Shown: one piece after another, positions 41,566 through 60,306 of the stretch | Numbering within the stretch: the first letter of the stretch is position 1 | Layout of the letters: each line of letters begins with the position of its first letter | Origin: Candidatus Moraniibacteriota bacterium | Lineage (GTDB): Bacteria > Patescibacteriota > Minisyncoccia > Moranbacterales > UBA2206 | Direction: 5' to 3' | Length of the DNA: 60,681 nucleotides | Assembly: GCA_003483065.1 (NCBI GenBank) | Contig: DMWY01000013.1 | Location: 1 to 60,681 of the forward strand | Translations under genes and position numbers: made by a program | The notes under the pieces: generated by a model | What the model was told of the DNA's origin: nothing | Database searches by the model: none | The model's input: the letters and a program-made list of their open reading frames with translations, nothing else

Positions 41566-41566
41566 G

Positions 41567-42229: not shown

Positions 42230-42244
42230 GACTTCTCCTTCCGT

Positions 42245-43058: not shown

Positions 43059-43073
43059 AACATGAGTCCTCCT

Positions 43074-46163: not shown

Positions 46164-46605
46164 CAAAACTACAAAAAAACGAACGGCTGAGGATAAAAAG
46201 GCTGTTTTGGAACAATTGGCAAAACTGCCCATTATTCAAGTTGCCTGCCAAAAGGCTGGCATTAGTCGCGCGACATATTATCGTTGGCGAATTGCGGACA
46301 AACATTTTGCCAAAGATGCCGACGAAGCGATTGAGGAAGGCGTGCAGATGATTAATGATTTGTCAGAGTCGCAATTGATCAGTGCGATTAAAAACAATAA
46401 CTTTTCTGCAGTCAGGTTTTGGCTGCAGAATCGCCATCGCGCCTACGCTAATAAGGTTGAGGTTTTTGATCGAGGAAAGAGTGATAATCAAGAATTAACA
46501 GATGAGCAGAAGAAAATCATAGAAGAAGCTTTACAATTGGCTTCTGCTAGTCCTGAAAAAAATGGAAACGATGAATCAAAACCAAATTATCAAACAGTTA
46601 CTTAA
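46135..46605 (+). CDS. HTH protein, putative terminase small subunit
   Basis: ACQKAGISRATYYRWR HTH; positioned directly upstream of and overlapping the terminase large subunit gene. Confidence 0.5.
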   Translation: MIKRKKMINNKTTKKRTAEDKKAVLEQLAKLPIIQVACQKAGISRATYYRWRIADKHFAKDADEAIEEGVQMINDLSESQLISAIKNNNFSAVRFWLQNRHRAYANKVEVFDRGKSDNQELTDEQKKIIEEALQLASASPEKNGNDESKPNYQTVT

Positions 46606-48025
46606 TGACAGGCAGGTTCGTATACAAGCAACAAAGAAAAGTCACAATTTATTTTTCCATGTCTATTTGAGTGAATATGTTAGATATGAGACAGCCGATT
46701 TTCAAAAAGAAATGTTTCGAATTACAGAAGACGATTCAATAAGAGGATCAGTGATTGTGGCTTTTAGGGGTTCTGCAAAATCGACTATAATGGATTTGTC
46801 ATATCCCCTTTGGGCGGTAATGGGAAAGCAACAGAAAAAATTTGTAGTAATTTTTACACAAACTCAACAACAAGCCAAACTTATCATGTCCAATCTTAGG
46901 AAAGAGATGGAAACAAATAAATTGCTTATGCAAGAGATGGGCCCTTTTGAAGAACAAAACGGACAATGGAGTTCTCTTTCTATAGTAATCCCAAGGTTCA
47001 ATGCTCGCATTATGGTTGCCTCGGTTGATCAAAGCATCCGAGGAATGCGACATGGGGCATATCGTCCAGATTTAATTATTCTAGATGATGTTGAAGATTT
47101 GGACTCAGTAAAAACCAAGGAAGGCAGAGACAAAACTTTTAATTGGTTTGCTGGAGAAGTTATTCCAGCTGGTGATGAAAGCACTAAGATAATCATTATC
47201 GGGAATCTTTTGCATGAGGATTCGCTTTTGATGCGCCTTAGAGAAAGTATCGAAAAAGGAAAATGGAACGGCATTTTCAAATCCTATCCACTTGTTCGTG
47301 TTGTTGATGATGAAAGCATTATTCTTTGGCCAGGAAAGTTTAAGAGTATGGAAGATATTAAGCGATTGAATTTTTCTATCCCTAACGAAAATTCGTGGCA
47401 ACGCGAATACATGCTGAATATTGTTCCGGACGAAGGTCAAATTATTCTGCCAGAGTGGATTCATCATTATAATAAACTTCCTGCGGAGCAACCAAATTTT
47501 GTAATAACAGGAATCGATCTTGCTATATCTGAAAAAGATACTGCTGACTATACTGCAATGGTTTCGGCGTGTGCTTATGGAACTGGGGAAAGACAGCGAG
47601 TATATATTTTGCCCAATCCGGTCAATAGGCGGATGGATTTTCCCAAGACTCTGGAAAAAATAAAAGAATTGAATCAATTCTTAAGTGGAATTGGTTGTCC
47701 TAAAATATATATTGAAGAAGTTGGTTATCAGGGAGCAATCATTCAACAGTTAAGAACAATGGGCATCTTTGCTGAAGGAGTAAATCCTCACGGAAGCGAT
47801 AAGCGTTCACGACTAGTTTCTGTGAGCGGGTTGATTTTTTCAGGAAAAATAATGTTTCCATCTCATGGGGCGAAAGAACTAATTCAACAATTAACAGGTT
47901 TTGGCAAAGAAAAGCATGATGATTTAGCTGATGCCTTTTCAATCTTGGCTTTGCAGATTATAGAAAGAGCTCGGAAACAAGGAGGATTTATTATTGCTGG
48001 TGCGCCATTGCCGGATTTTATGTGA
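46562..48025 (+). CDS. Phage terminase large subunit
   Basis: Walker A-like AFRGSAKST, Walker B DLIILDDVED, and C-terminal RNase H-like nuclease residues (GIDLAIS..DYTA; HDDLADAF). Confidence 0.82.
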   Translation: METMNQNQIIKQLLNDRQVRIQATKKSHNLFFHVYLSEYVRYETADFQKEMFRITEDDSIRGSVIVAFRGSAKSTIMDLSYPLWAVMGKQQKKFVVIFTQTQQQAKLIMSNLRKEMETNKLLMQEMGPFEEQNGQWSSLSIVIPRFNARIMVASVDQSIRGMRHGAYRPDLIILDDVEDLDSVKTKEGRDKTFNWFAGEVIPAGDESTKIIIIGNLLHEDSLLMRLRESIEKGKWNGIFKSYPLVRVVDDESIILWPGKFKSMEDIKRLNFSIPNENSWQREYMLNIVPDEGQIILPEWIHHYNKLPAEQPNFVITGIDLAISEKDTADYTAMVSACAYGTGERQRVYILPNPVNRRMDFPKTLEKIKELNQFLSGIGCPKIYIEEVGYQGAIIQQLRTMGIFAEGVNPHGSDKRSRLVSVSGLIFSGKIMFPSHGAKELIQQLTGFGKEKHDDLADAFSILALQIIERARKQGGFIIAGAPLPDFM

Positions 48026-48100: not shown

Positions 48101-48292
48101 ATGAAAAAGAGCAAAAACTTACCGGAAATACTCACTCTCAAAGAAGTTTGCGAAGTTCTTAATTGTCATCCCAACACTCTCCGTAATTGGGACAATGAAG
48201 GCACATTAAAGGCTATTCGTTTTGGGAAGCGTGGCGATAGAAGATATCACAAAAAGGACATAGAAAAGTTAATTATAAAAATGAAGAATTAA
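48101..48292 (+). CDS. MerR/excisionase-type HTH protein
   Basis: LTLKEVCEVLNCHPNTLRNWDNEGTLKAIRFGKRGDRRY. Confidence 0.75.
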   Translation: MKKSKNLPEILTLKEVCEVLNCHPNTLRNWDNEGTLKAIRFGKRGDRRYHKKDIEKLIIKMKN

Positions 48293-48316: not shown

Positions 48317-51300
48317 ATGCCAACGATAACAAACGAAGGTACAAATACACTGTCATCAAGTCTGAAAAATACACTTCCTAATTGTGACAGGATAGATGCT
48401 CTTGTTGGTTATTTCTATTTTTCTGGATTTAAGGATTTGCATAACGAGCTAAAAGACAAGAAAATAAGAATTCTTGTTGGGATGGATATCGATAATAAAA
48501 TCCTTGAAAAAGTATCGACGCTTAAGGAGCTTAATTTTGATCATCATATAGTTGAAACTAATATTTCTTCTCGCTCAGGTGCAAAAGAAGATTATATCGA
48601 AAATTTTTCTAAAATCTTTAACGATACTGACTATTTTGATAATGAAGAGTCGCAAAAAGCTTTTGAGATATTTCTTGATAAAATTAAGGACGGTAGCTTG
48701 GAAATTAAAAAAACTGCTGAGGCGAATCATTCTAAATTTTATATATTGCACGAAAAAACAGAACAGAGAGGAATTGTAATTGTTGGATCTAGCAATTTAA
48801 CAATTTCTGGACTTAAAGAACAACGAGAGCACAATATTGTTCTTTCAGAAAAACATTACTACGAAAGTCATATAAAGGATTTTGAAAATTGCTGGAATGA
48901 TCCAAGCAATATTGTGATTACCGATATTGAATCCTCAGAAAACTTTATCAAAGAAGTAAAAAGAAAAATATGGCTGTATTCATTGCCTGAACCATCGTTA
49001 ATGTATTATAGAGTTCTCAGTGAATATTTCGCGATTACGGAAATAGAGAATATGAAAACTCCCAAGAATATTACGGGTGGCAAGTTTTCCGATCTTAAAT
49101 ATCAAAAAGACGCTATTAATTTGGGAATTGATAGAATAAAAAAATTCGGCGGAGTTATAATTGCAGATGTGGTTGGGCTTGGGAAGAGTGTTGTGGCCTC
49201 TGCCATTGCTCATAATCTTGGAATTAAAACGATTATTATCGCGCCTCCACATCTCGAAAGTCAGTGGAAAGATTATATGGCCGAATTTGATTTTAAGGGA
49301 TTTGTTTATACTACTGGAAAAATCGAGGAAGCTTTTGAAAGACATGGCAATGATGAGGGTAGACTTTTAATTATTCTTGATGAAGCCCACAAACATAGGA
49401 ATGAGGACACTGATAATTACAAGGTACTACACAAATTATGTGCCGGTCATTATGTTATGGCGCTTTCCGCAACTCCGTTCAACAATGATCCGAAGGATAT
49501 TTATGCTCTCATAAAGTTATTTAGTACCCCCGGGCAATCTACCATTCGAACAGTGGAAAATCTTAGTATGTCTTTCCACATGCTTTTTAAGAGATATAAG
49601 GCAGTAAGAAAGGAGCTTCGAAAAACTGACAATAAAGGCGGTGATCAAAATTCTGACATTAAAATTGAACTACATGCTATTGCGGATGAATTACGAAGAA
49701 TGATAGAGCCACTTATTATTCGTCGATCAAGGTTAGATTTGGAAGAAATTGAAGAATATCGAAACGATTTGAAAGTTCAGGGAGTTGCTTTTGCCAAGGT
49801 AAAAGATCCGGAATTACTTGAATATGATTTAGGTGATATGTTTGAAATGTATATAGATACGCTTGAGAAAATTTCTCCTGAAGATAAAAGTACGAATTTT
49901 ATTGGTGCTCGTTATAAGCCAGCAAGTTATATTAAACAAGGATCAGAATTTATTTATAAATTAGTTGAAAATGACGATGATGATGAGGGTATTTCTGCCG
50001 AAGAAAAAATACAGCAAATTAAACAGGCACAGGTAAACATCGCTAAGTTTATGCGGAGATTGCTCGTGAGGCGTTTTGAAAGTTCGATTGGTGCATTTAA
50101 TATTTCTCTTGGAAATATGATCACTTCCACAGAAGTGATGCTTGATTGGTATGTAAATAGAAAAGAAGTTCCTATTTATAAAAAAGGCGCTCTTCCCGAT
50201 GTTGAATATTTAAATGATATGAATGATCAAGAAAGAGAAGAGTTGCTAGCTAAATTTGAAGACAAGGGACTTATTAGAATACCTGTGTCTGAACTTCAAC
50301 CTGAATTCGAACAGCACCTAAAGGACGACATTAGATTACTTAAGGAAATACAAGTTAAATGGGCAGGCAATAAGAATGATCCTAAATTCGATTTTCTTAG
50401 AAATAGATTGTCTGATTCTATTGCTAGGGACAGAAAAAGGAAAATAATTATATTTACTGAATTTTCAGATACAGCAAATTATATTTATCAAAAATTAAGC
50501 GACGATGGATTTAAAAGAGTTTTTAAATATAGTTCGGAAGATGCCTCAGATGAAAATAAAAGAATAATCAGAACTAATTTTGATGCTGGATTGGATGATC
50601 TGAAACAGGCAGATGATTTTGACGTCATTATCGCAACTGATGCGATCTCAGAAGGTTTTAATCTTCATCGTGCCGGAACAGTTATCAATTATGACATCCC
50701 GTATAACCCCACGAGAGTAATCCAGCGAGTTGGTCGTATCAATCGTATAAATAAAAAAGTTTTTGAAGAACTCTATATTTATAACTTTTTCCCTACATTA
50801 ACCGGCGAGTTAGAGACGCGCACAAAAGCAATTTCAACATTGAAAATGGATTTGATCCATACGCTTTTGGGCGAAGACACAAAAACACTTACATCCGAAG
50901 AAGATTTGAAAAATTATTTTGCGAAACAATATAAAGAGGAAAATTCCAAAAATGAAAGTTTGTCATGGGATGCTCCATATAGAAATACTTGGCTCAAAAT
51001 AAAAGATGATCAGGAAATAATGCGTAAAATTTCTGGAATTCCGCATAGATCAAGAATAGCTAGAAAAGCAAAAATTTCTGGTGTGGTGGCCTTTGCCAAA
51101 AAGAGTGGAAATTTCGTTTTTGCATTTGGTGAGAATCCAGAAAATGTGCAAATCGTTTCTCCGCAATTTGCTTTGCCATTATTTGATGACATCGCTGATT
51201 CTGAAAAAGCTTTGCAAACAAGTATCAATTTTGAACCAATTTATAAAATTACAAAAGAGCATATTTTCAAGGACAACACTAAGGCACCAGTAGATAGCGG

Positions 51301-51589
51301 GAGAAAACAGGATTCTCTTAATAAAATTAAGATTCTTGCAGATAGCTATCCACAAGCAAAAGATCTTTGTATCGATGTTATTCGTGTAATTAAGGATTTG
51401 GACGGTCTGCCTAATGGTGTGCTCAAAGAAATTGCTGAATTAAAGATTGATAAAAATGATTTTGACAAAGCCTTTCAAGAACTTCGCGAATTGGTGCCAC
51501 ATAAATATCTCGAAAATATATTCAAAACAGCAGAGCGAGCCAATGACTCCGGAAAGTTAATTGTATTATCTGAAGAATTAATCGCATGA
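48317..51589 (+). CDS. PLD (HKD) nuclease domain fused to an SNF2-family SF2 helicase
   Basis: HKD motif NHSKFYILHEK..VGSSNLTISG. Helicase motifs ADVVGLGKS, ILDEAHKHRN, LSATPFNN, TDAISEGFNLH, VIQRVGRINR. Confidence 0.88.
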   Translation: MPTITNEGTNTLSSSLKNTLPNCDRIDALVGYFYFSGFKDLHNELKDKKIRILVGMDIDNKILEKVSTLKELNFDHHIVETNISSRSGAKEDYIENFSKIFNDTDYFDNEESQKAFEIFLDKIKDGSLEIKKTAEANHSKFYILHEKTEQRGIVIVGSSNLTISGLKEQREHNIVLSEKHYYESHIKDFENCWNDPSNIVITDIESSENFIKEVKRKIWLYSLPEPSLMYYRVLSEYFAITEIENMKTPKNITGGKFSDLKYQKDAINLGIDRIKKFGGVIIADVVGLGKSVVASAIAHNLGIKTIIIAPPHLESQWKDYMAEFDFKGFVYTTGKIEEAFERHGNDEGRLLIILDEAHKHRNEDTDNYKVLHKLCAGHYVMALSATPFNNDPKDIYALIKLFSTPGQSTIRTVENLSMSFHMLFKRYKAVRKELRKTDNKGGDQNSDIKIELHAIADELRRMIEPLIIRRSRLDLEEIEEYRNDLKVQGVAFAKVKDPELLEYDLGDMFEMYIDTLEKISPEDKSTNFIGARYKPASYIKQGSEFIYKLVENDDDDEGISAEEKIQQIKQAQVNIAKFMRRLLVRRFESSIGAFNISLGNMITSTEVMLDWYVNRKEVPIYKKGALPDVEYLNDMNDQEREELLAKFEDKGLIRIPVSELQPEFEQHLKDDIRLLKEIQVKWAGNKNDPKFDFLRNRLSDSIARDRKRKIIIFTEFSDTANYIYQKLSDDGFKRVFKYSSEDASDENKRIIRTNFDAGLDDLKQADDFDVIIATDAISEGFNLHRAGTVINYDIPYNPTRVIQRVGRINRINKKVFEELYIYNFFPTLTGELETRTKAISTLKMDLIHTLLGEDTKTLTSEEDLKNYFAKQYKEENSKNESLSWDAPYRNTWLKIKDDQEIMRKISGIPHRSRIARKAKISGVVAFAKKSGNFVFAFGENPENVQIVSPQFALPLFDDIADSEKALQTSINFEPIYKITKEHIFKDNTKAPVDSGRKQDSLNKIKILADSYPQAKDLCIDVIRVIKDLDGLPNGVLKEIAELKIDKNDFDKAFQELRELVPHKYLENIFKTAERANDSGKLIVLSEELIA

Positions 51590-54500
51590 TGAAATTTAAT
51601 GAAAAATACAATCCCGAAGAATTCCACAGTTTCTTGGAAGATTTTTTGCCTGCGGATTTTGCGAAAAATGAAAAGGATATTGTTATCAATAAAGATCGAT
51701 ATAAAATAATTACCAACGCAAAAGAGTTGGGATTTTGTGAGTCACTTGATTTGTATATTTTGGAAATGGAACATAATCGTGAAAAGGATCCGCGGGTTGC
51801 CATTACCACGGATGCTTTCAAAATCCTAGCTGACCATTGGATACATAGAGCGCTAGTTGTATTTAAAAATAATGACTCGGAAAATTATCGATTTTCATAT
51901 CTTACTATCTCCCTTGATATAAATGATAAAAACAAGGCAATTAAAAAGTATTCCAATGCACGCAGGTATTCTTTTTATTTAGGTGTTGATTCTAAAGTGA
52001 GAACACCTGAGCAACAACTTATCAAGAAAGGAAAAATTCAGAATATTGATGATCTATTTAGCAGATTTTCGGTGGAGGTGGTCAATAAACAATTTTATTT
52101 GGAGGTAGCGAAACATTTTGACGAGCTTGTTTTAAGCGAGGATAAAAATCTTGTGCTTCCTAGTGTGTCGCAAGAAGATGTTAATTTTAGAAAAAGTTTT
52201 GCAGTGCGGTTAATCGGTCGGTTGATGTTCTGTTGGTTTTTGAAACAGAAAAAATCTGATAAGGGTCAGCTTATCCCGGATGAATTGCTTTCTTCAAGTA
52301 TAGTTGCGGATAATTATTATCACAATATCCTTGAGCCATTATTTTTTGGCGCCTTAAACACAATTATTGAGGCTCGTGATATTCGGAGCGATTTATTTGA
52401 TAAAGTGCCATATCTTAACGGAGGACTCTTTAATCCTCAGTCGGATGATTATTATGAAGTAGATCGTGGAACTTTTACCTCTAAACATATAAACACTCTC
52501 AAAATCAGCGACTCTTGGTTTAGAAACTTTTTTGAACTTCTGGAAACTTATAATTTCACTATTGATGAAAATACCGTCTTTGATCAAGAGCTTTCGGTTG
52601 ATCCGGAAATGCTAGGCAGAATTTTTGAAAATCTGCTGGCAGAAATTAATCCGGAAACTGGAAGTAGCGAAAGAAAAAGAACAGGGAGTTTCTATACTCC
52701 TCGCCAAATCGTAGAATATATGGTTGATCAGTCGCTCATTGAATATTTCAAGACAAAAACTAGAATAGATTCTAATAAACTCACTGCTCTTGTGAGTTAC
52801 GATCTGAATGATGACGCTGATTATCCGCTTTCTGAAGAAGAAAAAATGAGCATAGTGATGGCGATTGAGTCTTTGAAAATTCTTGACCCTGCCTGTGGAT
52901 CGGGAGCATACCCAATTGGAGCACTTCAAAAAATAGTATACATTCTTCAGTTAGTTGATCCGGATTGTAAGTTATGGCTCAATGAAAAATTAAAAGGTAT
53001 TCCCGAATTGTATAAACAAAAGATAATCAATGAAGTTCAGTCTAACCCTTTCGATTACACTCGCAAACTTGATGTAATAAAAAATTCTATTTTTGGAGTG
53101 GATATTCAGCCGATTGCTGTGGATGTTTCTCGCTTGCGTTGTTTCCTTACGCTAGTTGTCGAGTCAGAGATAGATGACACGAAACCCAACAGAGGCATTG
53201 AGCCATTGCCAAATTTGGATTTTAAATTCGTTTGCGCCAATACTTTGATAGGTTTGCCAAAATTGCAATCCAATAATCTTTTCGAAGATCATTCTGGGGT
53301 TATTGAATTGTCAGCGATAATGTCAGAATATTTTTCGTGCAACAGTCAACGAAAGAATGAAATAAGACTTAAATTTTCCAATACTCAAAAGGATATTTTA
53401 AACAGAACTGTTGCTCATTATGGAAGAAGCACTGGGGAACTTACGCTCAAGCTTATCTCGTGGGATCCATTTAGTAATAATTCTAATTCTTGGTTTGATC
53501 CGGAATGGATGTTTGGTATTGAAGAAAAATTCGACATAGTAATCGGCAATCCTCCTTATGTAAATTTAGTCAGAATTCCTAACGAAGAAAGGGATATTTA
53601 TAAGAAAATTTTTACTGTCACTAAAAACAAAGTTGATCTCTACGCTTTTTTTATTGAAAAGTCGCAAGAATTAACAAAGGAAAATGGGACACTTTCTTTT
53701 ATTATACCTCAGACATGGAAAGCCACGGATAGTTTTTTGAAGTTAAGACAATTTATATTAAGACATTTTACAATAAAACAGATTGTAAATTTAGAAATGG
53801 GCGCTTTTACCGCCATTGTTAGACCACTTGTGCTATTACTGAAAAAGGATAAAGAGGAGAATTATAAAATTAATATTTATAATTCAAATTTTAAACATAT
53901 ATCAGAAATTAATATTAATGAAATATTATCTAAGAGTAATTTTGCGATCGACACTGATTCAAGCTATTCAGATAAGAGTTTATTTAACAAGATAGAGTCT
54001 GGCGCAAGACCCCTAGGTGAAATTATCCAATTTACAAGAGGAATAAAAACAAGTGATGATAAAAGATTTATCGGAAAAATTAATAAAAATGAAGAATACA
54101 AAAGGGTTTTCAGGGGTAGAAACATTAAGGCGTATGAACTAAATTGGCAAAAAGAGTATATGCAGTATAGACCAGATTTGATGAGAGAAAAAGTAGGGTG
54201 CCTCCCTCATACAAAAAAACTTTTTGAGGTGCCAATGAAATTAGTTACTCAGCGCGTAAATAGCTCGATGCAATTGCTTGTTGCTATTGATTTTGATTCA
54301 AATTACTTCCTAGACACAACGAATGTGTCTAGACATGAAACTCTAGATGCAAAATATTCAATGCTATTTTTATTGGGTCTACTAAATTCAAAACTAATAA
54401 ATTTTTGGTATTCAAAAAACTTTAGAATGCCTACTATTGGACTATATGAGTTACATTCGGTTCCTGTCAAAGAGACAGAATTTGCGCAAGAAAAAATCTC

Positions 54501-54648
54501 TAAACTTGTAAAGGATATACTTCAATTCAAAAAATCAGGCAAAGAAAAAGATGCGAAAGATATGCAATTTAAAATTGATGAATTAGTTTATGAGTTGTAT
54601 GGCCTGACAGATGAAGAAATAAAAATTGTGGAAGGAAAAAATGGATGA
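51586..54648 (+). CDS. Eco57I/PglX/DrmMI-type N6-adenine DNA methyltransferase with a C-terminal target-recognition region
   Basis: SFYTPRQIVEYMV, ILDPACGSGAYP, IFGVDIQPIAV, FDIVIGNPPYV. ATGA overlap with the helicase stop. Confidence 0.88.
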   Translation: MMKFNEKYNPEEFHSFLEDFLPADFAKNEKDIVINKDRYKIITNAKELGFCESLDLYILEMEHNREKDPRVAITTDAFKILADHWIHRALVVFKNNDSENYRFSYLTISLDINDKNKAIKKYSNARRYSFYLGVDSKVRTPEQQLIKKGKIQNIDDLFSRFSVEVVNKQFYLEVAKHFDELVLSEDKNLVLPSVSQEDVNFRKSFAVRLIGRLMFCWFLKQKKSDKGQLIPDELLSSSIVADNYYHNILEPLFFGALNTIIEARDIRSDLFDKVPYLNGGLFNPQSDDYYEVDRGTFTSKHINTLKISDSWFRNFFELLETYNFTIDENTVFDQELSVDPEMLGRIFENLLAEINPETGSSERKRTGSFYTPRQIVEYMVDQSLIEYFKTKTRIDSNKLTALVSYDLNDDADYPLSEEEKMSIVMAIESLKILDPACGSGAYPIGALQKIVYILQLVDPDCKLWLNEKLKGIPELYKQKIINEVQSNPFDYTRKLDVIKNSIFGVDIQPIAVDVSRLRCFLTLVVESEIDDTKPNRGIEPLPNLDFKFVCANTLIGLPKLQSNNLFEDHSGVIELSAIMSEYFSCNSQRKNEIRLKFSNTQKDILNRTVAHYGRSTGELTLKLISWDPFSNNSNSWFDPEWMFGIEEKFDIVIGNPPYVNLVRIPNEERDIYKKIFTVTKNKVDLYAFFIEKSQELTKENGTLSFIIPQTWKATDSFLKLRQFILRHFTIKQIVNLEMGAFTAIVRPLVLLLKKDKEENYKINIYNSNFKHISEININEILSKSNFAIDTDSSYSDKSLFNKIESGARPLGEIIQFTRGIKTSDDKRFIGKINKNEEYKRVFRGRNIKAYELNWQKEYMQYRPDLMREKVGCLPHTKKLFEVPMKLVTQRVNSSMQLLVAIDFDSNYFLDTTNVSRHETLDAKYSMLFLLGLLNSKLINFWYSKNFRMPTIGLYELHSVPVKETEFAQEKISKLVKDILQFKKSGKEKDAKDMQFKIDELVYELYGLTDEEIKIVEGKNG

Positions 54649-57600
54649 TAAAATACTGCCAAAATCTATTGGCGGGGGTGAATTTTCTCCGGCTCAACTA
54701 TCCTCAGTACAAGATGACCTTTGCGATAAGTTAGATTCACTCCATAGTAAATATGGTCTTAGTGTAAAACCCTCAAGCATGTTAAGAGGCGCGGTTTTTG
54801 TCACGCAAAAAGAACTTCGAAATAATTCTGATTGGATGACGCAAGCAGCTAATTCGCTTAGAGAAATTTTGTATCCTTTTTATAGCAAGGAAATAAAAAA
54901 TATTCCTAGTAACAAAAAGAATATTTTAGAAGAATATGGCTCAGTGCGCGCCACTGATGATAAATTGATTCAAGAAATGGGGAGGGTATATGGACTTTTA
55001 AATGGACTTGCTCATCATGGCAATATCAAAAAAAACAATGTTGATTTATCCAAATTTAGCCCAGAGGATTTCGAAAAGCTGTTTATTGATTTTGAAAGCG
55101 TGATGTTAAAAGCATTGTCTCGCCAATTAGATATACATCAACAGGTAGATAAAATAATTACGAGTAAAGAAATAGAAATAGACGCTTCTGATATTAAGGA
55201 TTTAATCAATCTTAATTTTGATACTCACCAGTATTTTTTCTTCAAAGCTGATAATCGATGGCTAAAGTGGCTATGGAAAAATGGATTCCTGGAGATTGTA
55301 AAAGAAAAAGGTAAAGATGAAAACCAATTTTCATATACTTTGCCGGAGCTTCAGTATCTTGTAAATATTTCAGAGAAAGATCCTACTGGTGTTGTGGATA
55401 TTATACTTCAAGTCCCAGTTTCCAAAGAAAATTTCAATCCGGAAGTCGTTAGTAGGTTTTTATGGATATGTGGATCTTTGGCCGCAGATCAGGTTGCTAG
55501 AATTGTTTCGAAAATAAGAGATGAAAAATGGATTCAGCTGATGAGGAGATTTAACAATTTCGGATTTGAATATGAGAAAATGCTTGAAAAGCTTTTTGAA
55601 GCAAAAGATTGGAGCAATCTTCTGGTTCTCGCTGAAGCGGTTCTTGCAATTTATCCGAAAAAAGATGTGACCGAGGAAGAAAATGAATATGAAACAGACA
55701 ATCCGTTTTATTTTAAGGATCTCAGGCAAATAAAAGTGTTCGAATATCTAGTCTCTGTTGATGATAAAAACTTGGAAAAATTCCTAGGATTAGTTTTGGA
55801 CGTGATGAAAAAAATAATTCCAAGCGAAAAAAGGAAAAATAAGAGTAAGTTTTTTGAGATAGCTGATAGCGTCGGTTTCTATGATGTAGATTTTTTCACT
55901 CTTGAGTTTGATGATGAGAGGCATCTATCATACAGGGATGATGTAAAAAATATTGCGACAACGATGAAGAAGCTTGTCCAGCGAATGATTGAAAAAAATC
56001 AATCTAACCCGAAGAATGTCAGAAAGGTGTATGAAAAATATGTAGATACTCTCCCGCTCAGTCAAACAATGTGGCGTTTTCGGTTGTTTGTTTTAGCTCA
56101 GCGCCCAGATGTTTTTAAGGAGGAGTTAAAAAAGGCCTTTTTTGAATTTTTCGAGAAAGAAGAATCTTACGAATTGATTCTGGGCGCGGAATATGATCAG
56201 GCGCTAAAAAAAGGATTTTCAATATTGTCTAATGATGAAAAGAGGCAATATGTAGAAAAGGTAGTCGATTTTTTTGGCAAAAAAAGAGAAGACCAAACAG
56301 ATGAAAAATGGCACAAGCATAAGGGGCGAGAAATGTTAGCGTGTGTTTATTCTGAACTCACCGAAGAGGAAAGGAATAATGCAGAGAAGATTTTGAAAGG
56401 CAAAATTGAAAAGGAGTTTAATCCAGAACCAAGTATAGTTTCTGGAATGGCCGGATGCATTGCTTCAAAGGGGCCGATTTCTCTTGAGGATTTGCAAAAG
56501 ATTTCTGTTCCTGAGGTCGTGGTGAAATTATCAAACGAATGGACGCCAGAAAATCTCCGAAAGATGGACACGGAGAGAGATTTCATGAATCCGTTAAATG
56601 CTGATGGAATGGGTAATTTACTTAAGCAGGATATTGCCCAAAGATTCGATTTGTATGTTTCAAATGCAGAATTATTTTTTGATAGAGAAAAGCTAGATCA
56701 GCATTATACATATTCTTTTTTTCAGGGAGTTTGTGATGTTCTTCGCCAAAATAAATTTCAAGAAAATGTTAATTTGGAAAAAATACTAAGTTTGGTGGAA
56801 AAGATAATTGAATCTGATGAAAAAGAAAGTCTTCCAAAAGATGAAAAAAGGCGAGAAAGATTTGATACCTGGGTTGCCGGTTGGAATTCGGTTTATTATG
56901 CAATGTCAGATGTCGTAAAAGAATTGCTAGGTGAAGGAAAGGACAAAGCACTTATTGATTTTTCAGTCTATCGCGAGAGATTGTTGGCCATTATTAAATA
57001 CTTGCTTTCTCATGGTAGTCCAGATGAGGAAAATAATATGAAAGAAGATGGAAATGATCCATTTTCAGTTGCTATAAATTCAGTCCGAGGGAGAGCATTT
57101 CAGTCATTCGTTTTATTTACCTATCGTGACGGGGATAGTTTTGCTAAGGATGCTGAAGTAAAGATTTCAGATGACGTTAAGAAAATATATGAAAAGATTT
57201 TAGATAAGGAAAAGACCTATGCGATTATGTTTTTGTATGGTCACTATTTGCCGTCATTCTATTATCGCGATAAAAAATGGATCACTAAATTAACCTCGAA
57301 TATTTTTTCGGAAGATGCCGAAAATCACGATCTGTATATTGCCGCTTGGGAAGGATATATCTCTGCAAATATATACGGAGATATGTTTAGCGAGTTTAAA
57401 AATTTGTACGAAAGAGCAATAAAGCTTAATCCTAACAGCTACACAAAAAGGAAATATTTCAGGGAACTGGATGATGGCTTGGCGACACATCTTGCCCTAG
57501 CGTATGTTCACTTTCCGGATTTCAGTATTGATTCAGAATTATTTAAGTTATTTTGGGGAACTTCAAATGCAAAACGACATGAGGAGTTTATTTCTTTTGT

Positions 57601-58123
57601 TGGTCGTCATGCAATCTCTCGCGATGGAGCATTGAAATTTATTCAAGAAAATAAGATAGACATAAAAAATATAAAAAAACTTTGGGATTGGACATTGAAT
57701 AATGTTGTAGATAGAGAGGTGTTTGTCGGCTTTGGTTTTTGGATGGATAAGGAACAAAATGTTTTTGGCAATTCTAAATGGCTAGCCGATCATCTGGGCA
57801 GAACGCTCGAGAAAAGCAAGGGAGAAATAAACTGGGATTATGGATTAATAAAGTCCCTTCCCGCTTTGGCTGAACAAGCGCCGGAAGAAACGCTCAGAAT
57901 ACTGAAAGCATATTTGCTGGATCACTGCCTCAATAAGCCAGAGTCGTTCAGAAATTCTATCTATGTTGATGATTTCCTGTCTGCCTTTAATGTTTTGTAT
58001 AAAAATGGAGATGATGACATGAAATTAAAAATCTATGAACTTATTAATGAGTTGATACTTAAAGGAGGTAGTCGTTTTTGGAAACTTAAGGAGGTTATAG
58101 AAAACAGTAAAATTAAAAAGTAA
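54641..58123 (+). CDS. Large (about 1160 aa) protein of unknown function, predicted mostly helical
   Basis: Long uninterrupted ORF. ATG 54641 overlaps the MTase stop (ATGGATGA). No motif recognised. Confidence 0.8.
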   Translation: MDDKILPKSIGGGEFSPAQLSSVQDDLCDKLDSLHSKYGLSVKPSSMLRGAVFVTQKELRNNSDWMTQAANSLREILYPFYSKEIKNIPSNKKNILEEYGSVRATDDKLIQEMGRVYGLLNGLAHHGNIKKNNVDLSKFSPEDFEKLFIDFESVMLKALSRQLDIHQQVDKIITSKEIEIDASDIKDLINLNFDTHQYFFFKADNRWLKWLWKNGFLEIVKEKGKDENQFSYTLPELQYLVNISEKDPTGVVDIILQVPVSKENFNPEVVSRFLWICGSLAADQVARIVSKIRDEKWIQLMRRFNNFGFEYEKMLEKLFEAKDWSNLLVLAEAVLAIYPKKDVTEEENEYETDNPFYFKDLRQIKVFEYLVSVDDKNLEKFLGLVLDVMKKIIPSEKRKNKSKFFEIADSVGFYDVDFFTLEFDDERHLSYRDDVKNIATTMKKLVQRMIEKNQSNPKNVRKVYEKYVDTLPLSQTMWRFRLFVLAQRPDVFKEELKKAFFEFFEKEESYELILGAEYDQALKKGFSILSNDEKRQYVEKVVDFFGKKREDQTDEKWHKHKGREMLACVYSELTEEERNNAEKILKGKIEKEFNPEPSIVSGMAGCIASKGPISLEDLQKISVPEVVVKLSNEWTPENLRKMDTERDFMNPLNADGMGNLLKQDIAQRFDLYVSNAELFFDREKLDQHYTYSFFQGVCDVLRQNKFQENVNLEKILSLVEKIIESDEKESLPKDEKRRERFDTWVAGWNSVYYAMSDVVKELLGEGKDKALIDFSVYRERLLAIIKYLLSHGSPDEENNMKEDGNDPFSVAINSVRGRAFQSFVLFTYRDGDSFAKDAEVKISDDVKKIYEKILDKEKTYAIMFLYGHYLPSFYYRDKKWITKLTSNIFSEDAENHDLYIAAWEGYISANIYGDMFSEFKNLYERAIKLNPNSYTKRKYFRELDDGLATHLALAYVHFPDFSIDSELFKLFWGTSNAKRHEEFISFVGRHAISRDGALKFIQENKIDIKNIKKLWDWTLNNVVDREVFVGFGFWMDKEQNVFGNSKWLADHLGRTLEKSKGEINWDYGLIKSLPALAEQAPEETLRILKAYLLDHCLNKPESFRNSIYVDDFLSAFNVLYKNGDDDMKLKIYELINELILKGGSRFWKLKEVIENSKIKK

Positions 58124-58124
58124 A

Positions 58125-58259
58125 ATGCCAAAACCAGATCCGGAATGTGATTATTGCAATTATTTGAAGGCAGTGAGAGAAGTAGAAAAAAATCAAAACG
58201 GCGTGGCAATGAATTACAAAATGGGATACTTTTTGGATAAATGGAATTTGATAAAGTAA
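58125..58259 (+). CDS. Possible 44-aa CxxC micro-ORF (not in the ORF track)
   Basis: MPKPDPECDYCNYLKAVREVEKNQNGVAMNYKMGYFLDKWNLIK. Starts 1 nt after the upstream stop. Confidence 0.25.
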   Translation: MPKPDPECDYCNYLKAVREVEKNQNGVAMNYKMGYFLDKWNLIK

Positions 58260-58311
58260 ATGGCGCAAAAAAGAAGAATAATATACGTAAATAATTTAAT
58301 GATTTTTTGTT

Positions 58312-60306
58312 ATGACAGAAGTTAATATAAAGAGACTAGTTGATAATATAAACAAAATCAATATTTACACCCCGATTGTAGAAGCAATCGTGAATTCCAT
58401 GCATTCAATCAACGAAGCTAAGAGGAATGATGGAGAGATTGTTGTCACAATAAAAAGGGATAGTCAGGCGAGGCTTGGTATCGCCGGAGATATTTTGCCG
58501 GTAATTTGCGGCATAGAAATTACAGATAATGGAGTTGGGTTTAATAGTGAGAATAAGAGTTCTTTTAATAAGGTTTATAGCGACCGAAAAATTTCTATTG
58601 GTGGTAAGGGGTTTGGACGATTTTCTTTTTTGAAATGTTTCGATGATGTCAGGGTAAAAAGTATTTATAAGGAGAAGAATAAATATTTCAAACGAGAATT
58701 TGACTTTATAATCGATGATGACATTATTAAAAACGAAGAAAATAAACCAGTAGAAAATAAAGATGCAAATACGACATTGATATTGGAAAAGATGAAAACC
58801 GAATATCAGTATAGATTGGATAAGAAGCTTGAAACCATAGCAAGAAAATTATTGGAAAAGCTGTTGGTATATTTTGTAATCGACGATTTCAAATGTCCAA
58901 AAATAACCATCCAGGAAAAAGGTGGGCGTGGGGCAATTGTGTTGAATGATTATTTTATTAAAAATAAATCCATAACAAAAATTGAAGATAAGGAATTTAC
59001 CTTAACAACTATTGATTCGAGTAAAAAAGAAAAGTTTAGAATTAAGGTGTTCAAGATTTTTTATGGTGATAGCAGAAGTTCAATAAATTTAGTTGCACAC
59101 AACAGACAAGTTACGGAAGAAGCTTTGTATGTTTATGTTCCTGAATTTAAGGATGACTTCTATGATGAGATTGTTAATGAAGATGGGCAAAAGATTCAAA
59201 AGAATTATAAGATTAAAACCTATATTATGGGGAAATATTTAGATGAAAATGTTTCTTTGGAGAGAAGTGAATTTGAGTTTCACGACAACAGTGATTTACT
59301 GTATCCATTTTCTCAGAAAGAGATAGAAAAAGAGGCTGCAAACATTACAAAAGAAGTTTTTCGCGGAGAGGTTCTCACGAGACAAGAAAAAAAGAATAAG
59401 AGAATAAAGGAATATGTGGATCATAACGCTCCTTGGCAAAAATCATATCTTGCGGAACTAGATTTATCTTCTTTATCTTTTGATATTAATGATTCAGAAA
59501 TTGAAAGTGAACTAGAGAAAATTAGATTTCAAAAGGAACAAACTGCAAAAAATCAAATAGCAAAAATTTTACAAGAAGAGGATGGCGATTTGTCTGAAAA
59601 AATTAATGGAATAATTGGACAAATTACGGAAATTGGAAAAAGTGAATTGGCGCATTATGTCGCCCTACGAAAAGCTGTGCTAGATTTATTTAGAAAGGGA
59701 TTAACTTGGAATGACGAAAGGAAGTATGAGAAAGAAAAGGTTATCCATGATATTATCTTTCCGACCTCTACCGATTCCGATAGCACGCCATATGAGAAAC
59801 ATAATCTTTGGATAATCGATGAAAGATTGAGTTTTCACGAATATCTTGCTTCAGATAAACCCCTTAATAGTAATGATGAAAGACCAGATATATTGATATT
59901 TGATAAAAAAATTTCGGTTAGGAGTGGGAATGAGCTAAGCAATCCAATAATTGTCTTTGAATTCAAGAGACCAGAGAGATCAATATATGATGAAAATGAT
60001 GATCCAATAAAACAAATTGGATGTTATGTAGAAAAAATAAGACAACAAAAATTTAAAAATCCGGACGGCAGAACTATTTCGGCAAATGAGAATACACCAG
60101 CATACGGTTTTTTGATTTGTGATTTATCACCAAAAATAAAGGAATTTTGTCGAGATCATTCATTGACTGAAAGTCCAGATCAAGATGGTTATTTTGGATT
60201 CCACTCAGGGTATAAAATGTATATAGAGGTTATGAACTTTAACAAGCTAGTTGGCGATGCTGAACTTAGAAATAAAATATTTTTTAAGAAACTGGGAATT
60301 GAGTAA
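58312..60306 (+). CDS. GHKL-superfamily (MORC-like) ATPase with a C-terminal PD-(D/E)XK-type nuclease motif
   Basis: N box EAIVNSMHS, G1 box ITDNGVGF, G2 box GGKGFGRFS; C-terminus ERPDILIFD...NPIIVFEFKRPE. Confidence 0.78.
   Translation: MTEVNIKRLVDNINKINIYTPIVEAIVNSMHSINEAKRNDGEIVVTIKRDSQARLGIAGDILPVICGIEITDNGVGFNSENKSSFNKVYSDRKISIGGKGFGRFSFLKCFDDVRVKSIYKEKNKYFKREFDFIIDDDIIKNEENKPVENKDANTTLILEKMKTEYQYRLDKKLETIARKLLEKLLVYFVIDDFKCPKITIQEKGGRGAIVLNDYFIKNKSITKIEDKEFTLTTIDSSKKEKFRIKVFKIFYGDSRSSINLVAHNRQVTEEALYVYVPEFKDDFYDEIVNEDGQKIQKNYKIKTYIMGKYLDENVSLERSEFEFHDNSDLLYPFSQKEIEKEAANITKEVFRGEVLTRQEKKNKRIKEYVDHNAPWQKSYLAELDLSSLSFDINDSEIESELEKIRFQKEQTAKNQIAKILQEEDGDLSEKINGIIGQITEIGKSELAHYVALRKAVLDLFRKGLTWNDERKYEKEKVIHDIIFPTSTDSDSTPYEKHNLWIIDERLSFHEYLASDKPLNSNDERPDILIFDKKISVRSGNELSNPIIVFEFKRPERSIYDENDDPIKQIGCYVEKIRQQKFKNPDGRTISANENTPAYGFLICDLSPKIKEFCRDHSLTESPDQDGYFGFHSGYKMYIEVMNFNKLVGDAELRNKIFFKKLGIE

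What the first reader, a model, noticed from the sequence alone, without database searches (positions are those of the whole stretch)
48317..60306. Candidate undescribed defence operon: PLD-SNF2 helicase, Eco57I-type MTase, 1165-aa orphan, GHKL ATPase-nuclease
Four large same-strand genes have coupled junctions: an ATGA overlap at 51586-51589, an ATGGATGA overlap at 54641-54648, and only 188 nt before the last gene.
- Gene 1 fuses a PLD/HKD nuclease (NHSKFYILHEK..GSSNLT) to an SNF2 helicase (GLGKS, DEAHKHRN, SATPFNN, QRVGRINR).
- Gene 2 is a gamma-class N6-adenine MTase of the Eco57I/PglX/DrmMI type (DPACGSGAY, GNPPYV) with no convincing nuclease catalytic motif.
- Gene 3 (about 1160 aa) has no motif I can recognise.
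- Gene 4 is a GHKL ATPase (EAIVNSMHS, DNGVGF, GGKGFGRFS) fused to a PD-(D/E)XK-like motif (RPDILIFD..VFEFKRPE).

The parts list overlaps class 1 DISARM (SNF2 DrmD, PLD DrmC, Eco57I-like DrmMI), but the DISARM core DrmA/DrmB (DUF1998) is absent. There is no PglZ/BrxC/BrxL, so it is not BREX, and no HsdS/HsdR, so it is not type I. MORC-like GHKL ATPases are known to associate with RM systems, but I do not know of this four-gene arrangement. The operon sits at the end of a mobile island next to terminase genes, a typical defence-island context.
Basis: partly seen in the sequence, partly recalled or inferred. Interest (0 to 1): 0.85.

Follow-up and report, generated by a model that had tools for sequence, protein, structure and literature searches.

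The report
Defence island of three separate modules
The four large genes are real and defence-related, but they are three independent units parked side by side on a prophage-like island: a two-gene helicase-nuclease plus methylase restriction system, a giant uncharacterised helical-repeat protein that rides behind many kinds of restriction systems, and a stand-alone ATPase-nuclease of an already described anti-phage type.

Summary
Four co-oriented ORFs sit at the stated coordinates, with the stated overlaps and motifs. The single four-gene-system reading does not hold.

- **g1+g2** (PLD-SNF2 and Eco57I-type MTase) is a widespread self-contained pair. In 80 metagenome loci found with g1, g2 was adjacent in about 55, while g3 and g4 were in none.
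- **g3** is a 1160-aa all-alpha HEAT-like solenoid. It carries a small N-terminal domain with invariant Arg and His. Its family is large and unannotated (2872 representative clusters). It sits behind PLD-SNF2/MTase pairs, type III, type II and type ISP-like systems, or with no restriction-modification (RM) genes nearby. Its phylogeny ignores that context. Some relatives replace the N-domain with a CHAT protease or a membrane protein, or add an FRG domain in front of it.
- **g4** was never found near g3 (0/80 loci) or g1 (0/80). It matches the paraMORC3 description and the domain plan of VcSduA, a tested GHKL-type Shedu nuclease. It usually sits alone in prophages.
- The 188-nt g3-g4 spacer holds a relic of a Cas4-like nuclease gene.
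- A small HTH gene precedes g1.

The known parts are ordinary. g3 is the one component worth following up.

The parts
48101..48292 (+). Small HTH gene (63 aa), likely the controller/regulator of the g1-g2 unit.
   Evidence: Read from the sequence. Matches PADLOC mad1 at 1.1e-11. An HTH_17/MerR gene occupies the same position upstream of g1 in L087. A 66%-identical homologue lies upstream of the RM genes in L086.
48317..51589 (+). g1: a single-HKD PLD nuclease (about residues 46-193) fused to an SNF2-type SF2 motor (about residues 280-830), plus a C-terminal region of about 250 aa. This is the restriction effector.
   Evidence: Pfam gives PLDc_2 at 2.5e-10, SNF2-rel_dom at 3.4e-11 and Helicase_C at 2.3e-17. 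PADLOC 'HKD+Snf2' C3a139 covers residues 29-828, and DrmD matches only partially. H138, K140, GSSN and SNF2 motifs I, II, III and VI are conserved across 65 family members.
51586..54648 (+). g2: a gamma-class N6-adenine DNA methyltransferase of the Eco57I type with a TaqI_C-like specificity domain. Its N-terminal domain has no nuclease residues.
   Evidence: Pfam gives Eco57I at 2.6e-33, N6_Mtase and TaqI_C. PADLOC REase_MTase_IIG matches at 1e-77 but only from profile position 198 onward. No acidic or ExK column is conserved in the first 150 residues across 51 homologues. A g2 homologue lies next to g1 in about 55 of 80 metagenome loci.
54641..55120 (+). g3 N-terminal domain: an all-helical module of about 160 aa with invariant Arg (R79, 54860-54862) and His (H130, 55013-55015). 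Numbering runs from the TTG at 54626.
   Evidence: In alignment A4 of 54 fused or separately encoded copies, only R79 and H130 are invariant, and A75, S77 and E80 are conserved in at least 90%. Sixteen of the 54 weakly match Pfam PF18165 pP_pnuc_1, best E 2.4e-4, below the gathering score. In about half of the relatives this domain is encoded as a separate small ORF immediately upstream of the core.
55121..58123 (+). g3 core: an alpha-solenoid (HEAT/ARM-like) of about 1000 aa with no recognisable catalytic or NTP-binding motif.
   Evidence: The AlphaFold2 model has mean pLDDT 87.6 and is entirely helical. Foldseek against the PDB returns only generic solenoids such as CAND1, karyopherins and FANCI, with TM-scores 0.15-0.23. 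It matches no Pfam, NCBIfam or PADLOC family. The family holds 2872 representative clusters at E<=1e-3.
58126..58260 (+). Relic of a Cas4-like PD-(D/E)XK nuclease gene inside the g3-g4 spacer.
   Evidence: The first 22-29 residues (PDPECDYCNYLKAVREVEK) align with the extreme C-termini of the 218- and 251-aa Cys-rich nuclease-like proteins that directly follow g3 in L027 and L037. E-values are 0.005-0.019 in a small database, and the matches are concordant in position.
58312..60306 (+). g4: a GHKL ATPase, a transducer (S5-like) domain, a helical linker and a C-terminal PD-(D/E)XK nuclease. It is a stand-alone paraMORC3/VcSduA-like gene.
   Evidence: E24, N28, D72xGxG, the G98-K-G-x-G-R motif, D526, E550 and K552 are invariant in 59 homologues. 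The AlphaFold2 model has pLDDT 81. Foldseek matches TRAP1/HtpG, GyrB, TopoVI-B, MutL/PMS2 and SMCHD1 at E 1e-10 to 1e-7. The C-terminal domain weakly matches HSDR_N. No partner gene is conserved across 51 viral loci.
37900..48025 (.). Backbone of the mobile island that carries the defence genes. It holds a serine recombinase (39483-40913, minus strand), a ParB-MTase (44108-45400), an MTase (45393-46163), a TerS-like HTH gene (46135-46605) and TerL (46562-48025). It is flanked by tRNA genes at 36843-37848.
   Evidence: Pfam assignments come, and the tRNAs. The same backbone genes recur within 10 kb of g3 homologues elsewhere: the recombinase in 23 of 80 loci, the ParB-MTase in 11 and the TerS-like gene in 7.

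Best explanation
The region is a composite defence cargo on a prophage-like integrative element of a Patescibacteria (CPR) genome. It contains three separable units.

**Unit A: HTH + g1 + g2, an ATP-dependent restriction-modification system**
- g2 recognises a short site through its TaqI_C-type domain and methylates adenine on host DNA.
- On unmodified DNA, g1 is recruited and translocates with its SNF2 motor.
- Each g1 chain carries only one HKD motif, so it must dimerise to form one PLD active site that cuts the DNA.
- The small HTH protein controls expression.
- The domains, motifs and gene pairing are shown here. The mechanism is inferred from BfiI, SauUSI and MtsD, and from type ISP/IIG enzymes.

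**Unit B: g3, an autonomous sensor-effector protein co-transcribed behind the RM genes as a second layer**
- The 1000-aa solenoid is the sensing or scaffolding surface, binding either a phage protein or the state of the neighbouring RM enzyme.
- The small N-terminal Arg/His domain is the output module. In relatives it can be swapped for a CHAT protease or a membrane protein, or be preceded by an FRG domain.
- The architecture, the swaps and the context-independence are shown here. The sensing and toxic output are inferred.

**Unit C: g4, a stand-alone GHKL-ATPase-controlled PD-(D/E)XK nuclease**
- It is of the paraMORC3/VcSduA kind: a dimeric ATP-driven clamp that licenses DNA cleavage.
- It arrived next to g3 by a separate insertion or deletion event that left a Cas4-like gene relic.
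For: **g1-g2 is an independent pair**
- Of 80 metagenome loci retrieved with g1, about 55 have a g2 homologue directly adjacent, often with 4-nt overlaps. The third gene varies and is never g3, g4 or a conserved DUF499-like gene.
- Catalytic residues are conserved across the g1 family.
- g2 lacks nuclease residues.

**g3 is separable**
- In 80 genome loci, its upstream co-oriented partners are a PLD-SNF2+MTase pair (7), an Eco57I/ISP-like MTase (6), type III Mod+Res (7), type II systems (6), or no RM genes.
- The nearest g3 relatives sit in different contexts. For example, L019 (type II) and L020 (type III) are 82% identical, and L024 and L032 are 87% identical.
- Between the window and L087, g3 is 87% identical, but g1 is only 57% and g2 only 38% and 25% over its two aligned parts.

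**g3 architecture**
- A high-confidence all-alpha solenoid.
- An N-domain with invariant R79 and H130.
- Alternative partners: a CHAT protease (Pfam 1.7e-7), membrane proteins and FRG (4.6e-16).

**g4 is independent**
- 0/80 and 0/80 co-occurrence with g3 and g1.
- In 51 viral loci its neighbours are CI-like repressors, terminases and portals. Only 3 of 127 neighbours are MTases.
- In Alistipes it lies between TerL and the portal gene.
- It has a GHKL + transducer fold and an invariant D...ExK motif.
- VcSduA, with the same layout, loses defence activity in E27A and K557A mutants (PMC12137116). g4 has E24 and K552 at the corresponding positions.

**Relic in the spacer:**
Against: - The tight overlaps g1/g2 and g2/g3 fit co-translation of all three, and the triad HTH-g1-g2-g3 recurs in 9 loci across several CPR classes and Elusimicrobia. 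A functional link between g3 and the RM pair therefore cannot be excluded.
- CPR genomes are compact, so short junctions are weak evidence in either direction.
- No enzymatic activity is demonstrated for the g3 N-domain. Its only family similarity is below Pfam's threshold.
- MORC and paraMORC ATPases do associate with SF2-helicase RM systems in some genomes (PMC2292703; L088 here). g4 could therefore still cooperate with g1-g2 in this organism.
- No DUF4263 (Shedu) profile match was obtained for g4.
- Nothing here has been tested experimentally.
Confidence: 0.62

Rival explanations
1. Three-component system. g1-g2-g3 is one RM-like machine in which g3 is a non-ATPase scaffold or regulator. 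It would take the place that the DUF499/BrxC-like ATPase holds in MANTIS/BR/Hma systems, loading or gating the methylase and the helicase-nuclease. g4 is a bystander.
For: - g3 sits in the same gene position as HmaC/MtsA-type components: helicase, methylase, then a large third protein (PMC12839542).
- The g2/g3 overlap is 8 nt.
- The triad recurs in L011, L037, L041, L056, L061, L075, L076, L006 and L087.
- In MANTIS the methylase needs an accessory loader (bioRxiv 10.64898/2026.09.23.753747).
Against: - About 55 g1-g2 pairs, including the closest g1 relatives (40-57% identity), lack g3.
- About 70 g3 loci lack g1-g2.
- g3 is attached to mechanistically unrelated RM types, and its tree does not follow them.
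- g3 is far more conserved than g1 and g2 between the window and L087.
- g3 has effector-like alternative N-terminal modules (CHAT, TM, FRG), which a methylase loader would not need.
Confidence: 0.2
2. g3 is not an immune protein. It is a mobile-element function, for example an anti-defence or element-maintenance scaffold that protects the island's own DNA from the host or from co-resident RM systems. It travels with the recombinase/ParB-MTase/terminase backbone.
For: - Backbone genes of the same element family recur near g3: serine recombinase in 23 of 80 loci and ParB-MTase in 11 of 80.
- Two g3 homologues are on IMG/VR viral contigs.
- No catalytic motif is recognisable.
Against: - The immediate co-oriented neighbours are predominantly RM genes (27 loci), plus CBASS, a GmrSD-like HNH protein and a Schlafen-type helicase. 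This is the pattern of defence cargo.
- Swappable CHAT, TM and FRG modules are typical of immune effectors.
- Many loci have no backbone genes within 10 kb.
Confidence: 0.1
3. One reading: all four genes form one previously undescribed system in which the GHKL-nuclease g4 cooperates with the SNF2-PLD/MTase pair and g3.
For: - The genes are adjacent and co-oriented, and all 11 public contigs carrying the exact g4 sequence show the same four genes.
- MORC-type ATPases are known to associate with SF2-helicase RM operons (PMC2292703).
Against: - Those 11 contigs come from the same population.
- In every independent lineage examined, g4 is absent from g3 loci (0/80), from g1 loci (0/80) and from the closest triad, L087.
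- g4 homologues are solitary prophage genes.
- The spacer contains a gene relic, which indicates a rearrangement junction.
Confidence: 0.05

Closest known systems
MANTIS / Gao_RL / type-2 DUF499-centred BREX-related system (MtsA-D) (PMC12839542; bioRxiv 10.64898/2026.09.23.753747)
   Same: The effector is an N-terminal HKD/PLD nuclease fused to an SF2 (Swi2/Snf2-class) motor that dimerises to form one PLD site. It is paired with an N6-adenine methyltransferase that supplies site recognition. A small repressor gene is sometimes present upstream.
   Different: No DUF499 AAA+ ATPase (MtsA) and no DUF3780-type small protein (MtsB) is present in the window or in 80 related g1 loci. g2 is an Eco57I/type IIG-like MTase with its own TaqI_C specificity domain. 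g3 is not an ATPase.
Class 1 DISARM (DrmA, DrmB, DrmC, DrmD, DrmMI)
   Same: It has an SNF2 helicase (DrmD-like, partial HMM matches), a PLD nuclease (DrmC-like, here fused to the helicase) and an Eco57I-like adenine MTase (DrmMI-like, partial matches).
   Different: The core DrmA/DrmB (DUF1998) genes are absent. Scores are far below the NCBIfam equivalog cut-offs (139 against 610 bits for DrmD).
Type ISP restriction enzymes (LlaGI/LlaBIII) and type IIG enzymes (own knowledge)
   Same: They combine a nuclease, an SF2 translocase, a gamma-class adenine MTase and a specificity domain. Methylation protects the host and ATP-driven translocation precedes cleavage. One g3-linked MTase (L009) carries a Type_ISP_C domain.
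   Different: Here the functions are split over two genes. The nuclease is PLD rather than Mrr/PD-(D/E)XK, and the motor is SNF2-type.
paraMORC3 (Iyer, Abhiman & Aravind 2008, PMC2292703) and VcSduA, a GHKL-type Shedu (type I-D) (PMC12137116; PMC10441436)
   Same: g4 has an N-terminal GHKL ATPase with intact motifs, a transducer/S5-like middle domain and a C-terminal restriction-endonuclease-fold domain with D...ExK. It is about 660 aa and usually a solitary gene. Its catalytic Glu and Lys lie at nearly the same positions as E27 and K557 of VcSduA. Like paraMORC3, it is common in Bacteroidota.
   Different: No DUF4263 (Shedu) or SduA profile match was obtained, and only a weak HSDR_N match. 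This lineage is from Patescibacteria.
PrrC embedded in the EcoprrI type I RM operon, and 'guilt-by-embedding' defence genes (bioRxiv 10.1101/2024.01.29.577857)
   Same: g3 is co-oriented with, and tightly attached to, RM operons of several types, as PrrC and other embedded defences are. An RM-linked latent effector acting as a back-up layer is an established concept.
   Different: g3 has no ABC ATPase and no HEPN Rx4-6H motif. It sits at the 3' end of the operon rather than between RM genes. No trigger is known.
DSR2-type single-protein defences: an N-terminal effector plus a large helical-repeat sensor (own knowledge)
   Same: A small N-terminal output domain is followed by an alpha-solenoid of about 1000 aa that could bind a phage protein. 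The N-terminal modules are swappable.
   Different: No SIR2 domain, and no detectable sequence or specific structural similarity. DSR2 was not among the top 50 Foldseek hits.

Membership tests
MANTIS / BR type-2 (Gao_RL) | HKD/PLD nuclease fused N-terminally to an SF2 helicase (MtsD) | tested here: met
   g1 carries PLDc_2, SNF2-rel_dom and Helicase_C. The HKD and helicase motifs are conserved across the family.
MANTIS / BR type-2 (Gao_RL) | N6-adenine methyltransferase (MtsC) | tested here: met
   g2 carries Eco57I and N6_Mtase with the DPACGSGAY and NPPY motifs. Orthology to MtsC was not tested.
MANTIS / BR type-2 (Gao_RL) | DUF499 AAA+ ATPase (MtsA/HmaC), the centre of the system | tested here: not met
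   No ORF in the unit has a P-loop or a DUF499 match. g3 has no Pfam, NCBIfam or PADLOC hit and is an all-alpha solenoid. No large third gene is conserved across 80 g1 loci.
MANTIS / BR type-2 (Gao_RL) | Small DUF3780-type protein (MtsB) inside the locus | tested here: not met
   The only extra ORFs are the 63-aa HTH (mad1-like) and the 44-codon relic. There is no alpha+beta protein gene of about 190 aa between 48101 and 60306.
Class 1 DISARM | DrmA and DrmB (DUF1998) core | tested here: not met
   No such ORF is present. The DrmA model matches only the generic helicase C-lobe of g1.
Class 1 DISARM | DrmD SNF2 helicase and DrmMI methylase at family level | tested here: not met
   NCBIfam DISARM_DrmD scores 139 bits against a 610-bit cut-off. 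PADLOC DrmMI matches are partial, at 2.5e-17.
BREX | PglZ, BrxC, BrxA/B together with PglX | tested here: not met
   Only partial PglX-like matches to the g2 catalytic core were found (98.8 bits against a 500-bit cut-off). No PglZ or BrxC hit was found for any of the four proteins.
Hma | HmaA helicase + HmaB methylase + HmaC (DUF499) ATPase | tested here: not met
   The HmaA model matches only g1 residues 625-815. There is no HmaC equivalent.
MADS | Eight-gene mad1-mad8 set | tested here: not met
   mad1 matches the HTH (1.1e-11) and mad2 matches the g2 core partially (1.7e-15). No mad3-8 match was found for g3 or g4, and none appears among the 25 listed matches for g1 (13 further g1 matches were not shown).
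paraMORC3 (GHKL + S5 + RE-fold nuclease) | GHKL ATP-binding motifs I-III intact | tested here: met
   E24, N28, D72xGxG and G98-K-G-x-G-R are invariant in 59 homologues. HATPase_c or HATPase_c_3 matches are found in 54 and 20 of the 59 members.
paraMORC3 (GHKL + S5 + RE-fold nuclease) | Transducer/S5-like domain after the GHKL domain | tested here: met
   Foldseek alignments of 330-520 columns to MutL/PMS2, GyrB, TopoVI-B, TRAP1 and SMCHD1 ATPase modules.
paraMORC3 (GHKL + S5 + RE-fold nuclease) | C-terminal restriction-endonuclease-fold domain with E-D-ExK | tested here: met
   D526, E550 and K552 are invariant, as are E504 and D503. There are weak HSDR_N matches (1e-5 to 0.08) in the window protein and several homologues. 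Direct comparison with the 2008 seed sequences was not possible.
Shedu (SduA) | DUF4263 nuclease domain | tested here: inconclusive
   No DUF4263 or SduA match was found in Pfam or PADLOC, for the whole protein or for the C-terminal domain alone. Published work places GHKL + nuclease proteins of this layout in Shedu type I-D using more sensitive methods (PMC10441436, PMC12137116). The VcSduA sequence could not be retrieved.
Pfam PF18165 pP_pnuc_1 (predicted pPIWI-associated nuclease) | Profile match above the gathering score | tested here: inconclusive
   Sixteen of 54 g3 N-domains match at E 2.4e-4 to 0.1, all below the 26.3-bit cut-off. The window copy itself gives no hit.

The most novel reading that the evidence does not exclude
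g3 may found a large, wholly unannotated family of immune proteins: at least 2872 representative clusters, mainly in Patescibacteria but also in Chloroflexota, Nitrospirota, Omnitrophota, Elusimicrobiota and others. In this reading, a 1000-aa HEAT-like solenoid acts as sensor. It is coupled to interchangeable N-terminal output modules: an Arg/His helical domain (sometimes preceded by an FRG domain), a CHAT protease or a membrane protein. It is preferentially wired to the 3' end of RM operons as a guard or back-up layer. That would make it a PrrC-like strategy built from entirely different parts and without any NTPase.
Probability: 0.35. Interest if true: 0.7.

Novelty: new variant of a known kind. 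Interest (0 to 1): 0.45.

Why it matters
**What the result changes**
- It breaks an apparent new four-gene system into three parts, two of which are known.
- g1-g2 is a minimal two-gene relative of MANTIS and class 1 DISARM that lacks their accessory ATPases. It could show which functions of those larger systems are really needed for self/non-self discrimination.
- g4 extends the GHKL-nuclease (paraMORC3/VcSduA) family into candidate-phyla-radiation bacteria and their prophages.

**What is open**
- g3 is the real unknown. It is a very large uncharacterised solenoid family that hops between restriction systems and carries swappable effector-like modules.
- If g3 is an RM-linked guard, it would be a new immune architecture. 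It would also be a useful marker for defence cargo in CPR genomes, whose immunity is poorly known.

Tried and rejected
- **Promoter and terminator scans** over 47900-60681 gave no more sites than shuffled sequence. They could not settle the transcription units.
- **Sequence searches of the PDB** with g3, g4 and the g4 profile found nothing.
- **Foldseek with g3** gave only generic solenoids, so no functional transfer was possible.
- **A direct g4-VcSduA comparison** could not be made. The supplementary table holding the sequence is truncated in the held copy, the Shedu classification paper has no held supplements, and its journal version is not held.
- **PADLOC on isolated sub-domains** (g1 PLD, g1 C-terminus, g2 N-terminus, g3 N-domain, g4 nuclease) added nothing beyond the mad1-like HTH.
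- **A weak tblastn hit of g3** to a 950-aa protein downstream of a g1-g2 pair in L123 was not confirmed by the g3 HMM, and I dropped it.
- **Rejected: g2 as a bifunctional type IIG enzyme.** No nuclease residues are conserved.
- **Rejected: g3 as a degenerate DUF499/AAA+ protein.** It has no beta-strands or P-loop.
- **The MADS primary paper** is not in the library.
- **Model coordinates are not exposed**, so I could not check whether R79 and H130 are close in space.

Full report
**Observation**

The 4-nt and 8-nt overlaps are real, and so is the 188-nt spacer. Every quoted motif is present in the translations.

Profile searches confirm the domain calls:
- g1 carries PLDc_2, SNF2-rel_dom and Helicase_C.
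- g2 carries Eco57I, N6_Mtase and TaqI_C.
- g3 matches nothing in Pfam, NCBIfam or PADLOC.
- g4 matches HATPase_c only weakly.

Homologue N-termini and public gene calls put the g3 start at the ATG at 54641, giving 1160 aa.

Two small features were missed:
- A 63-aa HTH gene lies at 48101-48292, just upstream of g1. It matches PADLOC mad1 at 1.1e-11. The same kind of gene precedes g1 in the closest related locus.
- A 44-codon ORF lies in the g3-g4 spacer.

**Setting**

The genes lie on an integrative, prophage-like island next to a tRNA cluster at 36843-37848. The island carries a large serine recombinase, a ParB-MTase, a second MTase, a TerS-like gene and a TerL. Homologues of g3 come overwhelmingly from Patescibacteria MAGs such as Moranbacteria, so the window is most likely from a CPR bacterium. 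The same backbone genes recur within 10 kb of g3 homologues in other genomes.

**Is it one system? Synteny tests**

*Starting from g3.* I aligned g3 homologues and retrieved 80 loci from species-representative genomes, with 10-kb flanks.
- tblastn found a g4 homologue in none of the 80 loci.
- A g1+g2 pair lay directly upstream in 7 of them.
- Two further triads came from context look-ups: Elusimicrobia L006, and the closest relative L087, which reads HTH-g1-g2-g3 followed by unrelated genes.

*Starting from g1.* I retrieved 80 metagenome loci.
- A g2 homologue was adjacent in about 55 of them, often overlapping by 4 nt.
- g3 and g4 were absent from all 80, by tblastn and by HMM.
- The gene after the methylase varied from locus to locus.

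*Starting from g4.*
- In 51 full-length homologues on IMG/VR viral contigs there is no g2 or g3 homologue (a single weak g1 hit, in L215), and no conserved partner gene.
- Their neighbours are CI-type repressors, terminases, portals and integrases. Only 3 of 127 neighbours are N6 methylases.
- In Alistipes the gene sits alone between TerL and the portal gene.
- A 60%-identical homologue is solitary.
- The 84%-identical homologue follows an unrelated Dcm/NgoFVII/Z1-helicase system after a 240-nt gap.
- The exact four-gene arrangement is seen only on contigs carrying the identical g4, that is, from the same population.

**Unit A: HTH + g1 + g2**

- The g1 family conserves H138, K140 and GSSN of a single HKD motif, along with SNF2 motifs I, II, III and VI.
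- The N-terminal 150 residues of the g2 family contain no conserved acidic or ExK residues. g2 is therefore a methylase with a specificity domain, not a type IIG nuclease-methylase.
- The closest described systems are MANTIS/Gao_RL (type-2 BREX-related) and class 1 DISARM. MANTIS uses the same PLD-SF2 effector and an N6 methylase, but it is defined by a DUF499 AAA+ ATPase and a small DUF3780-type protein (PMC12839542; bioRxiv 10.64898/2026.09.23.753747).
- Neither defining core is present in the window, and no conserved DUF499-sized third gene appears in the 80 g1 loci.
- I therefore treat the pair as a minimal two-gene RM-like system. It works like a split type ISP enzyme with a PLD nuclease.
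- MtsD, SauUSI and BfiI indicate that a single-HKD nuclease must dimerise to form its active site. This step is inferred, not shown.

**Unit B: g3**

*Structure.* AlphaFold2 with a 71-sequence alignment gives a confident (pLDDT 87.6), entirely helical solenoid. Foldseek finds only generic HEAT/ARM proteins at low TM-scores.

*Family size.* A profile search of 1.84 billion representatives finds 2872 clusters at E<=1e-3 and 684 at E<=1e-30. They come in a long form and in a short form that starts at profile position 147.

*N-terminal module.* The short forms are nearly always preceded by a small ORF. That ORF is one of the following:
- the same roughly 160-aa helical domain that is fused in the window protein, sometimes carrying a membrane anchor;
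- a membrane protein;
- a CHAT protease (Pfam 1.7e-7).

Two Caldilineaceae copies add an FRG domain in front of it (4.6e-16).

Across 54 copies of the helical domain, only R79 and H130 are invariant. Sixteen copies weakly match Pfam pP_pnuc_1, below threshold.

*Upstream neighbours.* The co-oriented upstream genes are mostly RM genes:
- PLD-SNF2+MTase (7 loci)
- Eco57I- or type ISP-like MTases (6)
- type III Mod+Res (7)
- type II systems such as Dam/DpnII, HpaII and EcoRI-MTase (6)

CBASS, a GmrSD-like HNH protein (L040) and a Schlafen-type helicase (L060) also occur. Many loci have no RM gene.

*Phylogeny.* g3 phylogeny does not track this context.
- Copies that are 82-87% identical sit behind different RM types or behind none.
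- Between the window and L087, g3 is 87% identical while g1 is 57% and g2 is 38% and 25% over its two aligned parts.

*Interpretation.* This pattern fits a separable module that is repeatedly wired to the 3' end of RM operons. It follows the logic of PrrC and of the 'embedded' defences described by Payne and colleagues (bioRxiv 10.1101/2024.01.29.577857). It does not fit a dedicated subunit of one enzyme. I commit to a sensor (solenoid) plus output (N-terminal module) protein acting as a back-up or guard layer. The architecture is shown. The sensing and output are inferred.

**The spacer**

The first 22-29 residues of the 58126-58260 ORF align with the extreme C-termini of the Cys-rich, Cas4-like PD-(D/E)XK proteins that directly follow g3 in L027 and L037. 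The E-values are weak (0.005-0.019). The positional concordance nonetheless suggests a deleted downstream gene, and so a rearrangement junction between g3 and g4.

**Unit C: g4**

- Invariant residues define GHKL motifs I-III and a D526...E550-x-K552 nuclease motif.
- The model (pLDDT 81) matches the GHKL + transducer modules of TRAP1/HtpG, GyrB, TopoVI-B, MutL/PMS2 and SMCHD1.
- The C-terminal domain weakly matches HSDR_N.
- This is the architecture, distribution and solitary habit described for paraMORC3 (PMC2292703).
- It is also the architecture of VcSduA, whose E27A and K557A mutants lose anti-phage activity (PMC12137116). Proteins of this kind are classed as type I-D Shedu (PMC10441436).
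- I could not obtain a DUF4263 profile match or the VcSduA sequence. Shedu membership therefore remains unproven, although 'works like VcSduA' is well supported.

**Verdict**

The proposed four-gene system is a juxtaposition.
- Two of the three units are variants or members of known kinds.
- g3 is an uncharacterised family whose behaviour makes it a reasonable candidate for a new RM-linked immune protein.
- Interest is moderate, at 0.45. It would be higher only if g3 proves to be a functional guard.

Noticed in passing
window 48101-48292: A 63-aa HTH (HTH_17/MerR-like) ORF lies directly upstream of g1. It matches PADLOC mad1 at 1.1e-11. An equivalent gene precedes g1 in L087, and a 66%-identical one lies upstream of the Dam/DpnII genes in L086.
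   Followed up: partly
window 58126-58260: A 44-codon ORF lies in the g3-g4 spacer. Its N-terminal part (PDPECDYCNYLKAVREVEK) matches the C-terminal ends of the Cas4-like nucleases that follow g3 in L027 and L037. It is probably a gene relic marking a deletion or insertion junction.
   Followed up: partly
window 36843-37848 and 38013-48025: A tRNA-Met/Met/Asp cluster is followed by an island. The island carries a Zn-ribbon protein, a DUF4365 protein, a large serine recombinase (minus strand), four unannotated minus-strand ORFs, a ParB-MTase, an MTase, a TerS-like gene and TerL. No portal or capsid genes appear before the window ends.
   Followed up: partly
L028:8725-9843 and L031:160-1248 (Caldilineaceae): The small protein upstream of the g3 core carries an extra N-terminal FRG domain (Pfam 4.6e-16), placed in front of the Arg/His helical domain.
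   Followed up: partly
L027, L032, L060, L068 (gene just upstream of the g3 core): A CHAT-domain (caspase-like) protease of about 350 aa takes the place of the helical N-domain partner. In L060 it is preceded by a Schlafen group 3-type helicase.
   Followed up: partly
L087 compared with window 48317-58123: Conservation is very uneven between the two closest triads. g3 is 87% identical, g1 is 57%, the g2 N-terminal part is 38% and the g2 specificity part is 25%. This suggests either module exchange or rapid specificity switching of the methylase.
   Followed up: partly
L088/L089 (the 84%-identical g4 homologue): Here g4 follows a Dcm methylase, an NgoFVII-type PLD endonuclease and a Z1/ResIII helicase (a CglI/NgoAVII-like system). 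This is the classic paraMORC neighbourhood of Iyer et al. 2008, so some g4 relatives may cooperate with RM systems.
   Followed up: no
H1: phage vB_RanS_PJN03 (ON245412.1) 40028-42043: A full-length g4 homologue (29% identity over 99% of the query) lies in a sequenced phage. The feature under it is annotated as N-acetylmuramoyl-L-alanine amidase, which is probably a misannotation or an overlapping feature.
   Followed up: no
L172 and similar contigs (the exact window sequence): The representative long contig retrieved (L172), which stands for 7 further similar places, breaks about 490 nt downstream of g4. This suggests a repeat or a strain-variable junction there. The far boundary of the island could not be seen.
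   Followed up: no
L014/L001 (Omnitrophota): Here the g3 homologue and its 236-aa partner sit immediately downstream of a CBASS operon (CD-NTase + Cap15) and next to a serine recombinase, not next to an RM system.
   Followed up: no
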